Sequence record: OQ031076
Length of the DNA stretch: 39,499 nucleotides
Source of the DNA: Shigella phage SFP20
Direction: 5' to 3' (one strand)
Part shown: positions 1 through 26,939 of the stretch, piece after piece
Layout of the letters: each line of letters begins with the position of its first letter
Numbering within the stretch: position 1 is the first letter of the stretch
Translations under genes and position numbers: made by a program
The notes under the pieces: model-generated
What the model saw: the letters and a program-made list of their open reading frames with translations, nothing else
Database searches by the model: none
Told to the model about the DNA's origin: nothing

Positions 1-1050
1 ATGGCAAACGTTCCGGGTCAGAAAATTGGTGCAGACCAAGGTAAGGGCAAATCTAGTGCAGACCAGCTCGCACTGTTCCTTAAGGTCTTCGCTGGTGAAG
101 TCCTGACAGCTTTCACTCGCCGCTCTGTTACCGCTGACAAACATATTGTCCGTACCATTCAGAACGGTAAGTCCGCACAGTTCCCGGTAATGGGTCGCAC
201 CTCAGGTGTGTATCTTGCTCCCGGTGAGCGCCTGAGCGATAAGCGCAAGGGTATCAAACACACTGAGAAGGTTATCACCATTGATGGTCTGCTGACCGCT
301 GACGTGATGATTTTCGACATCGAAGACGCTATGAACCACTATGACGTGGCTGGCGAGTATTCCAACCAGCTCGGTGAGGCTCTGGCTATCGCTGCTGATG
401 GCGCGGTACTGGCTGAGATGGCGATTCTGTGTAACCTCCCGGCTGCATCCGATGAGAACATCGCTGGTCTGGGTAAGGCGTCCGTTCTGGAAGTTGGTAC
501 TAAAGCAGACCTGAACACTCCAGCCAAGCTGGGTGAAGCGATCATCGGTCAACTGACCATCGCACGTGCGAAGCTGACCGCCAACTACGTGCCTGCTGGC
601 GACCGCTACTTCTACACCACCCCTGACAACTACTCCGCGATTCTGGCGGCCCTGATGCCTAACGCTGCTAACTACGCTGCGCTGATTGACCCTGAGACGG
701 GCAACATCCGTAACGTAATGGGCTTCGTTGTGGTTGAAGTTCCTCACCTGACTCAGGGCGGTGCTGGGGAAACTCGTGGTGACGATGGCATCTCCATTGC
801 TTCCGGTCAGAAACACGCATTCCCGGCAACCTCCAGCTCTACCGTTAAGGTTGCTCTGGACAACGTTGTGGGCCTGTTCTCTCACCGTTCTGCCGTTGGT
901 ACTGTTAAGCTGCGTGACTTGGCGCTGGAACGTGACCGCGACGTCGATGCTCAGGGCGACCTGATTGTCGGTAAGTACGCTATGGGTCACGGCGGTCTGC
1001 GTCCAGAAGCGGCAGGCGCACTGGTTTTCAAGGCAGCGTCAGCGGGTTAA
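1..1050 (+). CDS. 10A: major capsid protein (gene 10A)
   Basis: 349 aa ORF; strong similarity by eye to T7 gp10A (KLALFLKVF, SAQFPV, KHTEKVITIDGLLTADV, AILAALMPNAANYAALIDPE, HRSAVGTVKLRDLALER, KYAMGHGGLRPEAAGA). The RBS and phi10 promoter lie at the window 3' end (circular permutation). Confidence 0.96.
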   Translation: MANVPGQKIGADQGKGKSSADQLALFLKVFAGEVLTAFTRRSVTADKHIVRTIQNGKSAQFPVMGRTSGVYLAPGERLSDKRKGIKHTEKVITIDGLLTADVMIFDIEDAMNHYDVAGEYSNQLGEALAIAADGAVLAEMAILCNLPAASDENIAGLGKASVLEVGTKADLNTPAKLGEAIIGQLTIARAKLTANYVPAGDRYFYTTPDNYSAILAALMPNAANYAALIDPETGNIRNVMGFVVVEVPHLTQGGAGETRGDDGISIASGQKHAFPATSSSTVKVALDNVVGLFSHRSAVGTVKLRDLALERDRDVDAQGDLIVGKYAMGHGGLRPEAAGALVFKAASAG

Positions 1051-1313
1051 TGACCTTTAAGGCCCTCTCTACAGAGGGTCCTACCTTAGAGACATACAGT
1101 TCTACGGTGGGAACCAGCTTGAAGGTTGACTTCCCTGAGCTTTCAGATGTGACCGATTGGTCGCTGCTTGAGGTGACTACACCTGATGGTGTTAGCTACT
1201 CCCGTAGAACCAACAGTCTCTACTTCAAGGCCACCTCTGGCGTGGAAGGTCTGGTGATTGTTGGGTATGACGGTTCGCCTGTGCGTTCCTTCAACGTATC
1301 TTTCACAAACTAA
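1..1313 (+). CDS. 10B: minor capsid protein 10B, made by -1 ribosomal frameshift near the 3' end of 10A (about 1023-1029, G GTT TTC) into the ORF ending at 1313
   Basis: The -1 frame downstream of GGTTTTC stays open for about 95 codons to the TAA at 1311-1313 (ORF 1050..1313 in the track); same arrangement as the T7 10A/10B frameshift. Confidence 0.6.
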
Positions 1314-1319
1314 TTGAAA

Positions 1320-1355
1320 CCCCTTGGGTGCCTTCGGGTGCTTGAGGGGTTTTTT
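1320..1355 (+). terminator. Tphi-like intrinsic terminator after gene 10
   Basis: CCCCTTGGGTGCC-TTCG-GGTGCTTGAGGGG stem (with G-U pairs) and UUCG tetraloop, followed by TTTTTT; resembles T7 Tphi (AACCCCTTGGGGCCTCTAAACGGGTCTTGAGGGGTTTTTTG). Confidence 0.85.
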
Positions 1356-1370
1356 GCTTAAGGAGGGCCT

Positions 1371-1937
1371 ATGGCTCAATACATTCCACTGAATGCTAAC
1401 GATGACTTGGATGCTGTTAACGATATGCTGGCTGCTATCGGTGAACCAGCAGTCCTCCAGCTCGACGAAGGGAATGCAGATGTCTCGAACGCTCAGCGCA
1501 TCCTGCATCGAGTAAATCGTCAGGTCCAAGCTAAAGGCTGGAACTTTAATATCAACGAGGCCGCTGTCCTCACACCGGATGTCCAAGACCAAAGGATTCG
1601 ATTCTTGCCGTCTTACCTCCGTGTCATGACTGCTGGTGCTACCAGCTACTACAGTAACATGGGCGGCTATCTCTATGACCTCAGCACTCAGTCGACAACC
1701 TTCACTGGACCGATTACCGTAGAGCTGGTTGAGATGAAGCCGTTCTCTGAGATGCCTGTGGTCTTCAGGGACTACATCGTGACCAAGGCCAGCCGAGAGT
1801 TCAACGCTAAGTTCTTCGGCAGCCCTGAGTCTGAAGCCTATCTGCGCGAGCAGGAAGCTGAGCTGTACCAGCAGGTGATGGAGTATGAGATGGACACCGG
1901 GCGCTACAACATGATGTCTGACATCGGTCGAGACTAA
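1371..1937 (+). CDS. 11: tail tubular protein A (gp11)
   Basis: 188 aa; position after gene 10 and motifs shared with T7 gp11 (AVNDMLAAIGEP, RQVQAKGWNFN, IVTKASREFNAKFFG, MEYEMD). RBS AAGGAGG upstream. Confidence 0.92.
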   Translation: MAQYIPLNANDDLDAVNDMLAAIGEPAVLQLDEGNADVSNAQRILHRVNRQVQAKGWNFNINEAAVLTPDVQDQRIRFLPSYLRVMTAGATSYYSNMGGYLYDLSTQSTTFTGPITVELVEMKPFSEMPVVFRDYIVTKASREFNAKFFGSPESEAYLREQEAELYQQVMEYEMDTGRYNMMSDIGRD

Positions 1938-26747: not shown

Positions 26748-26939
26748 ATGACCGTCTATCGCGGAGTGTTCGGACAACTGTACGCAGTTAACCGTCATGG
26801 GATAGTATGCGTTAAACCTGAAGGCTGCGACTGGCAGCCATCCCACTATAGCCCTGAAGGTTTTCAGGACGCTATTTATAAAGGCTATGTTAAGGAGGTC
26901 AATGATGACCGTGGAGCAGAAATACATCGTGGAGCTTGA
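26748..26939 (+). CDS. hypothetical protein (gene 1.8 position)
   Basis: 63 aa from the ATG at 26748 with RBS GGAAGGAGAAGGG; overlaps the gene 2 start in another frame. Confidence 0.45.

What the first reader, a model, noticed from the sequence alone, without database searches (positions are those of the whole stretch)
1018..1313. Capsid 10A/10B programmed -1 frameshift appears conserved
Immediately before the 10A stop, GGTTTTC (1023-1029) sits in the same context as the T7 gene 10 shift site, and the -1 frame is open for about 95 further codons to 1313, just upstream of the Tphi hairpin. This would produce a C-terminally extended minor capsid protein.
Basis: partly seen in the sequence, partly recalled or inferred. 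Interest (0 to 1): 0.45.

Follow-up and report, generated by a model that had tools for sequence, protein, structure and literature searches.

The report
T7-type capsid frameshift, Ig-like tail
This T7-like phage very probably makes a longer minor capsid protein by a -1 ribosomal slip at GGTTTTC, as T7 does; here the slip adds a small Ig-like domain instead of T7's tail, which is an ordinary feature already annotated in close relatives.

Summary
The window is a Kayfunavirus genome (98.8% identical to Shigella phage SFP21B over window 900-1400) that starts at the capsid gene. G_GTT_TTC lies at 1023-1029 in the X_XXY_YYZ phase, on the same Val-Phe codons as the T7 and K1F shift sites. The -1 frame is open for 94 codons (1029-1310, stop 1311-1313), and a Tphi-like hairpin follows at 1316-1353.

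Comparative evidence strongly supports a programmed -1 frameshift.
- The extension is under purifying selection only in the -1 frame (pN/pS 0.19, against 1.85 and 1.92).
- Most relatives have no start codon for it.
- The rare GTT Val codon is used in 42 of 42 loci that have an extension at this site. The four Val-Phe loci that do not use this site have GTC or GTG.
- One lineage replaces the site with G_GTA_AAG.

The added tail is not T7's. It is a linker of about 20 residues plus an Ig-like beta-sandwich of about 75 residues (PHROG 7473, no Pfam family). The same domain sits in the -1 frame behind the capsid gene in four genera. Phages Peacock and CR8 already annotate it as a frameshift product.

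A hairpin 30 nt downstream of the site shows covariation in relatives; its role is unknown. No protein-level data exist for this phage.

Verdict: a new member of a known kind, of low to moderate interest.

The parts
1..1050 (+). Gene 10A, the major capsid protein (349 aa, stop TAA at 1048-1050).
   Evidence: ORF list. Pfam Gp10A-like PF21703, E 7e-105. The closest solved capsid chains are 9vvq (E 2.8e-210), 7y23 and T7 2xvr.
1023..1029 (+). Slippery heptamer G_GTT_TTC (Val342-Phe343), the proposed -1 shift site.
   Evidence: In phase, and at the codons homologous to the T7 and K1F sites. GTT is invariant in 42 of 42 loci with an extension at this site, although GTT makes up only 19% of Val codons in the window's genes 10A, 11 and 12. 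The Val-Phe loci that lack or do not use this site have GTC or GTG (L034, L035, L041, L049).
1029..1313 (+). -1 frame extension of 10B: 94 codons (1029-1310) plus TAA (1311-1313). Residues 1-20 (1029-1088) form a flexible linker. Residues 21-94 (1089-1310) form an Ig-like beta-sandwich.
1048..1052 (+). UAAUG: the 10A stop overlaps an ATG in the -1 frame, a possible termination-reinitiation start for a free 87-aa protein.
   Evidence: Present in the window and in SFP21B. Most relatives have ACG at this position, and no SD-like sequence lies upstream.
1060..1082 (+). Local RNA hairpin (core CCCUCU/AGAGGG at 1063-1078, loop CUAC). It lies 30 nt 3' of the heptamer and 10 nt 3' of the 10A stop. It is a candidate cis element of unknown role.
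   Evidence: RNAfold. It ranks 7th of 300 windows of 36 nt. It is more stable than synonymous-codon resamples (z -2.84, 1 of 1000). Hairpins of different sequence occupy the same place in other lineages. The hairpin of the K11 clade shows covariation.
1316..1353 (+). Tphi-like terminator for the phage RNA polymerase: a 17-bp stem, a UUCG loop and a U tract. It forms the 3' boundary of the exchangeable cassette.
   Evidence: Fold at -25.2 kcal/mol, z -3.7. Terminator scan. Nearly identical to K1F from 1308 onward. T7 Tphi is annotated at the equivalent place.
1371..1937 (+). Gene 11, tail tubular protein A (context only: the next gene after Tphi).
   Evidence: ORF list and annotations of relatives.

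Best explanation
A fraction of the ribosomes translating gene 10 slip back one base at G_GUU_UUC (1023-1029). At that moment tRNA-Val is on GUU and tRNA-Phe is on UUC. T7's value of about 10% is the only benchmark for the fraction, and it is an inference here. After the slip the ribosomes read CAA GGC AGC ... in the -1 frame, bypass the 10A stop at 1048-1050, and terminate at 1311-1313 just before the Tphi hairpin.

The product is gp10B, 437 aa and 46.0 kDa. It consists of residues 1-343 of the major capsid protein, a flexible linker of about 20 residues, and an Ig-like beta-sandwich of about 75 residues. It would co-assemble with 10A and display the domain on the outside of the head at sub-stoichiometric levels.

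Shown here:
- the site, its phase and the open frame;
- purifying selection on the -1 frame;
- conservation of the site and of the frame relationship across genera;
- the predicted fold of the extension.

Inferred: that the slip actually occurs in this phage, its efficiency, the incorporation of 10B into capsids, and what the domain does. The likely function is weak adhesion to surface carbohydrates or mucus, as proposed for other Ig-like domains displayed on phages.

The stimulatory elements are not identified. The candidates are the conserved hairpin at 1060-1082 and, by analogy with T7, the Tphi region.
For: 1. The heptamer is in phase and at the codons homologous to the experimentally established T7 site. 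It is the only in-phase GGTTTTC in the window.

2. The -1 ORF is under purifying selection in that frame only: pN/pS 0.19 against 1.85 and 1.92, and variable sites 13/6/34 by codon position. dN/dS is 0.15-0.39 against relatives that are 45-85% identical.

3. The same domain lies in the -1 frame, open from the heptamer, behind the capsid gene in Kayfunavirus, Caroctavirus CR8, Przondovirus K11 and Pektosvirus PP47. It matches 454 phage records.

4. There is no conserved initiation codon. The ATG at 1050 is ACG in most relatives. Gene callers produce ORFs of 54-87 aa with different starts. None of the candidate starts in the window, and only one in all the relatives surveyed (K11's GTG at codon 24), has an SD-like sequence upstream.

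5. A natural control: 42 of 42 distinct Val-Phe loci with an extension at this site use GTT, which is 19% of Val codons. The Val-Phe loci without a -1 ORF (L035, L041, L049) use GTC, and L034, which carries a Big_2 extension, uses GTG. My hand-computed Fisher exact test gives about 6e-6, not corrected for shared ancestry.

6. One lineage (L156) has G_GTA_AAG at the same codons and still leads in the -1 frame into the same domain.

7. Precedents exist. Peacock (92.6% identical extension) and CR8 annotate a joined -1 frameshift CDS, and the CR8 record notes mass-spectrometry matches. K1F g10b fusions are used for display (PMC6277420; PMC13370021). Kvp1 10B was shown by mass spectrometry to arise by a -1 shift at TTTTCA (PMC2579914).
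Against: There are no protein-level data for this phage or, in the papers I could read, for any phage with exactly this extension. The CR8 note does not say that peptides unique to 10B were found.

No canonical stimulator is present: there is no SD-like element upstream and no structure 5-9 nt downstream. The 98-nt region after the site does not fold significantly better than shuffles (z -1.63).

G_GUU is an imperfect X_XX for re-pairing in the P site. Relatives tolerate A_GUU_UUC and C_GUU_UUC, so the efficiency could be low.

In this particular phage a UAAUG overlap offers another route to express the domain.

One relative (L017/L030) has lost half of the domain, so the extension is dispensable.
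Confidence: 0.85

Rival explanations
1. The ORF at 1050-1313 is a separate small gene. Ribosomes that terminate at the 10A stop reinitiate at the overlapping ATG (UAAUG, 1048-1052) and make a free 87-aa protein, perhaps a capsid decoration protein. No frameshift is involved. This could also occur alongside frameshifting.
For: The window and SFP21B have the UAAUG overlap, and SFP21B annotates 1050-1313 as a CDS. A few other lineages have an ATG at the same place or a few codons downstream: the 87-aa clusters P0001-P0003 and P0024, and the 82-84-aa clusters that begin MTVASAP. Several records annotate a separate 'minor capsid protein' or 'hypothetical protein'. PMC7693777 treats it as a separate gene.
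Against: Most close relatives have ACG at this position. The K11 clade has no ATG before the domain, and the annotated starts differ from record to record. No SD-like sequence precedes the candidate starts, except K11's GTG at codon 24. The stretch between the heptamer and any candidate start stays open and aligns as protein in every lineage examined. The ORF is always in the -1 frame relative to 10A, although the 10A tail varies in length. The link between the GTT codon and the extension, and the swap to G_GTA_AAG, are unexplained if the heptamer is irrelevant.
Confidence: 0.1
2. The heptamer and the downstream ORF are a coincidence or a decaying relic. Only 10A is made, and 1051-1313 is effectively non-coding spacer ahead of Tphi.
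For: The extension is dispensable in T7 (established knowledge). One relative carries a truncated domain (L017/L030). K11, EV136_1 and SH4 leave the region unannotated.
Against: There is strong frame-specific purifying selection. The domain is conserved at 45-55% identity across genera. The predicted fold is confident. A 112-codon stop-free run contrasts with a background of 1-29 codons.
Confidence: 0.03
3. The longer protein arises from transcriptional slippage by the phage RNA polymerase on the T4 run, not from ribosomal slippage.
For: None specific. The site does contain a short run of T.
Against: Productive transcriptional slippage is known to need runs of about 7-9 or more identical bases (reviewed in PMC5009743); four T is far too short. 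The lineage with G_GTA_AAG has no such run yet keeps the arrangement. The T7 event is established as ribosomal.
Confidence: 0.01

Closest known systems
Phage T7 gene 10A/10B programmed -1 frameshift (Condron, Atkins & Gesteland 1991; reviewed in PMC5009743)
   Same: The heptamer G_GUU_UUC is identical and sits on the homologous Val-Phe codons a few codons before the 10A stop. The -1 ORF ends just before Tphi, and the next gene is gene 11.
   Different: T7 adds 53 residues of low-complexity, probably helical tail with no Pfam family. This phage adds 88 net residues that include a folded Ig-like domain. The two tails share no sequence similarity. The distance from the heptamer to Tphi is about 290 nt here, against about 200 nt in T7.
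Phage K1F gene 10b (type species of the same genus, Kayfunavirus)
   Same: Same genus, same heptamer and same flanks. Nucleotide identity exceeds 92% up to position 1029 and the sequences are nearly identical again from 1308 through Tphi. The frameshift product is used experimentally for display (PMC6277420, PMC13370021).
   Different: K1F carries the T7-type tail of 44-48 codons. The segment 1030-1307 has no counterpart in K1F, so the region between the heptamer and Tphi behaves as a swapped cassette.
10B of Citrobacter phage CR8 and the minor capsid protein of Escherichia phage Peacock (GenBank joined -1 frameshift CDS)
   Same: Same heptamer and the same extension domain family (Peacock 92.6% identical; CR8 about 45-50%). 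Both are annotated as made by a -1 frameshift, and the CR8 record notes mass-spectrometry matches.
   Different: These are only annotations. I found no published junction peptide. The window's closest record (SFP21B) annotates a separate hypothetical protein instead.
Phage T3 / phiYeO3-12 10B (Big_2 Ig-like extension made by a -1 shift at C_CCA_AAG)
   Same: [quoted passage not shown]
   Different: The slippery site is different (Lys codon, two codons downstream) and the domain family is different: Big_2 PF02368, E 4.5e-10 for T3. The window's tail has no Pfam hit and no BLASTP similarity to the T3 tail.
Ig-like domains displayed on phage structural proteins (for example lambda gpV C-terminal domain and Hoc; 'Ig-like domains on bacteriophages', Fraser et al.)

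Membership tests
T7-type gene 10 programmed -1 ribosomal frameshift (10A/10B) | A slippery X_XXY_YYZ heptamer in the 0 frame near the 3' end of the major capsid gene. | tested here: met
   G_GTT_TTC at 1023-1029, in phase and identical in sequence and position to T7 and K1F.
T7-type gene 10 programmed -1 ribosomal frameshift (10A/10B) | The -1 frame is open from the heptamer past the 10A stop and is conserved as coding sequence in relatives. | tested here: met
   94 codons. pN/pS is 0.19 in the -1 frame against about 1.9 in the other frames. The frame is open and homologous in every lineage examined.
T7-type gene 10 programmed -1 ribosomal frameshift (10A/10B) | The extension has no independent, conserved translation start. 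| tested here: met
   The ATG at 1050 is ACG in most relatives. No SD-like sequence is present in the window. Predicted starts vary, giving ORFs of 54-87 aa.
T7-type gene 10 programmed -1 ribosomal frameshift (10A/10B) | The slippery sequence is conserved at synonymous positions only where the extension exists. | tested here: met
   42 of 42 loci with an extension use GTT, and 0 of 4 control loci do. GTT is 19% of Val codons. L156 carries the alternative G_GTA_AAG.
T7-type gene 10 programmed -1 ribosomal frameshift (10A/10B) | Two capsid protein species share an N terminus, and a junction peptide spans the shift. | not testable with these tools
   This needs SDS-PAGE and mass spectrometry of virions. 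The only indirect support comes from T7, Kvp1 (PMC2579914) and the CR8 GenBank note.
T7-type gene 10 programmed -1 ribosomal frameshift (10A/10B) | A distal 3' stimulator that involves the Tphi terminator (the CCCC element in T7). | tested here: inconclusive
   A Tphi-like hairpin with CCCC is present at 1316-1353, but I found no conserved pairing partner near the site. Its function is not testable here. The T7 requirement is known to me only from PMC5009743.
T7 10B tail (sequence homologue) | Sequence similarity to the T7/K1F tail (...TLTPAQ/QQKAARTRAAN...). | tested here: not met
   BLASTP finds no meaningful alignment. The motif is absent.
Big_2 (PF02368) Ig-like domain, as in T3 10B | A match to the Pfam Big_2 profile above the gathering threshold. 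| tested here: not met
   The window's tail has no Big_2 hit even at E of 1 or below. The T3 and L034 tails do hit Big_2, at E 4.5e-10 and 1.7e-16. BLASTP against the T3 tail finds nothing.
Ig-like beta-sandwich fold (structural class) | A seven-strand beta-sandwich that can be superposed on Ig-like domains. | tested here: met
PHROG 7473, the 'minor capsid' domain of Studiervirinae (VTDWS...RRTNSLYFK...YDG...SF) | A profile match and the conserved motifs. | tested here: met
   PHROG 7473, E 3.4e-37, covering positions 2-82 of 82. The invariant residues are listed. The BFVD top hit is the PP81 'minor capsid protein', TM 0.87.

The most novel reading that the evidence does not exclude
The hairpin 20-30 nt 3' of the shift site (1060-1082 in the window) is a real cis element with non-canonical spacing that tunes gene 10 frameshifting. 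It could act by pausing a leading ribosome so that the following ribosome sits on the slippery codons. That mechanism is my inference and has not been tested.

The hairpin recurs with unrelated sequences in several lineages. It is kept by compensatory changes in the K11 clade and by synonymous codon choice here. If it does tune frameshifting, it could help explain the still unexplained 3' requirements of T7 gene 10 frameshifting.

Separately, the cassette between the heptamer and Tphi would be a hot spot for swapping surface-display domains.
Probability: 0.15. Interest if true: 0.55.

Novelty: new member of a known kind. Interest (0 to 1): 0.25.

Why it matters
Practically, this is an annotation fix. 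Hundreds of Kayfunavirus, Przondovirus and related genomes, many of them phage-therapy candidates, list this region as a stray 'hypothetical protein' with arbitrary starts, as a separate 'minor capsid protein', or as nothing. It is most likely the C-terminal part of a frameshifted capsid protein.

It also marks a natural site that tolerates display of a folded domain on the head. This is relevant to engineering K1F-like display phages. It also indicates that the segment between the shift site and Tphi is exchanged as a cassette within a genus.

Biologically the finding adds little to the T7 paradigm. That would change only if the Ig-like domain turned out to have a defined ligand, or if the conserved downstream hairpin turned out to control frameshifting.

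Tried and rejected
- **Canonical stimulators.** There is no SD-like element upstream: the third positions of the Ala-Ala-Gly-Ala codons vary freely. No structure lies 5-9 nt downstream. The 98 nt after the site fold only marginally better than shuffles (z -1.63).
- **Pairing between a G run after the site and the CCCC of Tphi, as a T7-like long-range interaction.** By eye, at most 5 bp are possible in the window and they are not conserved in relatives (sequences). I dropped this idea.
- **The second GGTTTTC at 26859.** It is out of phase (GGT TTT C) inside a small ORF and is irrelevant.
- **L020 and L021** (40% identity over 38 residues). They lie in an off-frame stretch of an unrelated high-GC phage and are spurious.
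- **Solved structures.** None covers the extension. 9vvq, 7y23 and the T7 chains stop at about residue 345.
- **Weak sequence hits to carboxypeptidase A** (E 0.003-0.15). I treat these as noise.
- **The two Condron 1991 papers** are not held in the library, so the T7 requirements are cited from reviews.
- **Literature on a Kayfunavirus or Przondovirus capsid frameshift.** Nothing specific turned up.
- **Protein database search.** It returned only ORF fragments truncated by gene callers, and no fused 10B.
Full report
**What the window is**

The window starts exactly at the ATG of a T7-like major capsid gene. Over 900-1400 it is 98.8% identical to Shigella phage SFP21B, whose record is rotated in the same way. 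It is 96-98% identical to many Kayfunavirus phages (Studiervirinae) of Shigella, Escherichia, Citrobacter, Cronobacter, Enterobacter and Salmonella. Gene 10A occupies 1-1050 (349 aa; Pfam Gp10A-like, E 7e-105). Gene 11 starts at 1371.

**Check of the observation**

- The 10A frame reads GCA CTG GTT TTC AAG GCA GCG TCA GCG GGT TAA. GGTTTTC (1023-1029) is therefore in the X_XXY_YYZ phase on Val342-Phe343, six codons before the stop at 1048-1050.
- Read from C1029, the -1 frame gives QGSVSGLMTFKALSTEGPTLETYSSTVGTSLKVDFPELSDVTDWSLLEVTTPDGVSYSRRTNSLYFKATSGVEGLVIVGYDGSPVRSFNVSFTN. That is 94 codons, followed by a stop at 1311-1313.
- A 17-bp hairpin with a UUCG loop and a U tract follows at 1316-1353 (-25.2 kcal/mol, z -3.7). 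T7 and T3 annotate Tphi at the equivalent place.
- T7 (GTG GTT TTC AAA GTG GAG TAA) and K1F (CTG GTT TTC AGC ...) carry the same heptamer on the homologous codons.
- GGTTTTC occurs only twice in the window, and the second copy is out of phase.
- Stop-free runs in the -1 frame of the capsid region are 1-29 codons long, except for the 112-codon run that contains the extension.

**Is the -1 ORF really coding?**

I compared the window with 14 close relatives over the part that does not overlap 10A. Variable sites fall 13/6/34 on codon positions 1/2/3 of the -1 frame. pN/pS is 0.19 in that frame, against 1.85 and 1.92 in the other two frames. Against relatives whose extension is 45-85% identical, dN/dS is 0.15-0.39. 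The ORF therefore encodes a protein under purifying selection.

**Is it reached by frameshifting or by its own start?**

Five observations favour frameshifting.

1. The ATG at 1050, which overlaps the 10A stop as UAAUG, is present in the window, in SFP21B and in a few other lineages. Most close relatives have ACG there, and the K11 clade has no ATG before the domain.
2. Annotators and gene callers pick different starts. These are the equivalents of 1050, 1107 (GTG) and 1119 (TTG), which give 'proteins' of 54-87 aa. No candidate start in the window, and only K11's GTG at codon 24 among the relatives surveyed, has an SD-like sequence upstream.
3. In every lineage the -1 frame is open from the heptamer into the domain. 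The ORF is always -1 relative to 10A, although the 10A tail after the heptamer varies from 3 to 6 codons.
4. There is a natural control at a synonymous position. All 42 distinct Val-Phe loci that carry a T7-type or a window-type extension use GTT, a codon that makes up only 19% of Val codons in the window's genes 10A, 11 and 12. The Val-Phe loci with no -1 ORF (L035, L041, L049) use GTC. L034, which has a Big_2 extension, uses GTG. My hand-computed Fisher exact test gives about 6e-6, uncorrected for shared ancestry.
5. A metagenomic relative (L156) has G_GTA_AAG at the same two codons. This is a different but classic slippery sequence, and it still leads in the -1 frame into the same domain.

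Minor variants exist: A_GTT_TTC in the PP47 clade and C_GTT_TTC in L143 and L148. They suggest that the first base of the heptamer is not critical. This agrees with the Kvp1 report of shifting at TTTTCA, which was shown by mass spectrometry (PMC2579914).

**What is appended**

The tail is unrelated to the T7/K1F tail (no BLASTP similarity). It is also unrelated to the Big_2 domain of T3 (no similarity). Big_2 is detected in the T3 and L034 tails but not in the window's tail.

The tail matches PHROG 7473, a family of unknown function (E 3e-37). AlphaFold2, run on an 18-sequence alignment, predicts a disordered linker (residues 1-20, pLDDT about 50). It also predicts a confident seven-strand beta-sandwich (residues 21-94, pLDDT above 90).

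Fold searches return only Ig-like domains, at modest scores:
- the family's own member, the PP81 'minor capsid protein', TM 0.87.

No solved capsid structure includes the tail.

**Distribution**

tblastn finds the domain in 454 phage records: 285 Klebsiella, 54 Escherichia, 35 Salmonella, 19 Enterobacter, 13 Pectobacterium and others. In each record I fetched it lies directly behind the capsid gene. In Kayfunavirus, Caroctavirus CR8, Przondovirus K11 and Pektosvirus PP47 it is in the -1 frame behind the heptamer.

Annotation is inconsistent.
- Peacock and CR8 carry joined -1 frameshift CDSs, and CR8 notes 'matches in mass spectrometry analysis'.
- NS1 and PP47 call a separate 'minor capsid protein'.
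- SFP21B, KKP_3263 and LM33_P1 call a 'hypothetical protein'.
- K11 and EV136_1 annotate nothing.
- PMC7693777 describes it as a separate putative minor capsid gene with no T7 homologue.

**Cassette behaviour**

The window and K1F belong to the same genus. They are more than 92% identical up to 1029 and unalignable from 1030 to 1307. They are nearly identical again from AACTAATTGAAACCCC (1308) through Tphi.

Across 79 diverse capsid loci, three tail modules occur behind the conserved ...GHGGLRPEAAGA(L/V)VF end of the capsid protein:
- the T7-type tail;
- Big_2, reached through a slippery site ending in A_AAG;
- the module found here.

More distant relatives have no -1 ORF. One relative (L017/L030) has lost the distal half of the domain, so the extension is dispensable.

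**Mechanism and stimulators**

The best-supported mechanism is tandem or A-site slippage on G_GUU_UUC, as in T7. I found no upstream SD-like element and no structure at the canonical 5-9 nt spacing.

A hairpin does lie at 1060-1082, 30 nt after the heptamer and 10 nt after the 10A stop. It ranks among the most stable 36-nt windows of the region (7th of 300). It is more stable than sequences that encode the same peptide with resampled synonymous codons (z -2.84, 1 of 1000).

Hairpins of unrelated sequence occupy the same position in other lineages. The EV136_1 and CR8-like lineages have a C(UUCG)G hairpin, L155 has another, and the K11 clade has an 18-bp hairpin. In 27 distinct sequences of the K11 clade, 98.6% of cells are paired. 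Two adjacent pairs switch A-U to G-C and C-G to U-A through wobble intermediates, and 0 of 500 shuffles reach the observed covariation score. These switches may represent only a few evolutionary events.

The hairpin is absent or not supported in PP47, K1F, T7 and CR8 itself. Its role is open: it could be a frameshift stimulator with unusual spacing, a pause site near termination, or an mRNA stability element.

For T7, the review PMC5009743 states that a CCCC element in Tphi, more than 200 nt downstream, contributes to frameshifting and remains unexplained. The window keeps a Tphi-like hairpin with CCCC, but I found no conserved partner for it.

**Comparison with what is known, and novelty**

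This is the T7 gene 10 frameshift in a Kayfunavirus. The frameshift has been noted and exploited in K1F (PMC6277420, PMC13370021). It is annotated with this very domain in Peacock and CR8, and noted in the T7-like phage Penshu1 (PMC6753287). It is a new member of a known kind.

The modestly new points are these:
- the demonstration that the 'hypothetical' or 'minor capsid' ORF found across four genera is a frameshift extension;
- the definition of its Ig-like fold;
- the cassette boundaries;
- the recurrent downstream hairpin.

**Verdict**

Reinitiation at UAAUG is a minor rival, possibly an additional route, that is specific to this phage. Interest is 0.25.

Noticed in passing
window 1048-1052: The 10A stop and an ATG in the -1 frame overlap as UAAUG. 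This is a classic translational-coupling arrangement, and it is created by a single ACG-to-ATG difference from most relatives. It could yield a free 87-aa copy of the domain in this phage and in SFP21B.
   Followed up: partly
window 1060-1082; also L025 and L107-L148 (K11 clade), L016, L026, L152-L155: An RNA hairpin recurs 20-31 nt 3' of the shift site with unrelated sequences in different lineages. Synonymous codon choice supports it here (z -2.84), and two compensatory pairs support it in the K11 clade. Its spacing is not canonical for a frameshift stimulator.
   Followed up: partly
L156 (metagenome contig JACCDR012271413.1), about 170-190: The slippery site is G_GTA_AAG (Val-Lys) instead of G_GTT_TTC (Val-Phe) at the same codons, and it still leads in the -1 frame into the same domain. 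L143 and L148 have C_GTT_TTC, and the PP47 clade has A_GTT_TTC.
   Followed up: yes
window 1030-1307 compared with L005 (K1F): Within one genus, the segment between the heptamer and Tphi is a swapped cassette: an Ig-like module here and a T7-type tail in K1F. The flanks are nearly identical, and the stop codon of the extension lies inside the conserved block just before Tphi.
   Followed up: yes
L017 / L030 (IMGVR_UViG_2974604219): A natural deletion removes the distal half of the extension domain and fuses the frame to downstream sequence. This suggests that the domain is dispensable.
   Followed up: no
L022 (LM33_P1), about 1660-1770; absent in the window between 1356 and 1370: Many relatives carry an insert of about 100 nt between Tphi and gene 11. 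It encodes a 29-aa hydrophobic peptide (MVLIYTGLALFVLFWAYLLSSSPSSAYDR). The window lacks it.
   Followed up: no
window 1 (start of the sequence): The window begins exactly at the gene 10 ATG, as the GenBank records of SFP21B and SFP21A do. The sequence is probably a complete genome of about 39.5 kb that was rotated or linearised at the capsid gene rather than at the terminal repeats.
   Followed up: no
PDB 9vvq: The closest solved capsid chain (347 aa, E 2.8e-210) is deposited under the name 'Minor capsid protein', although it has the length of 10A. This is another sign of confused 10A/10B naming in this group.
   Followed up: no
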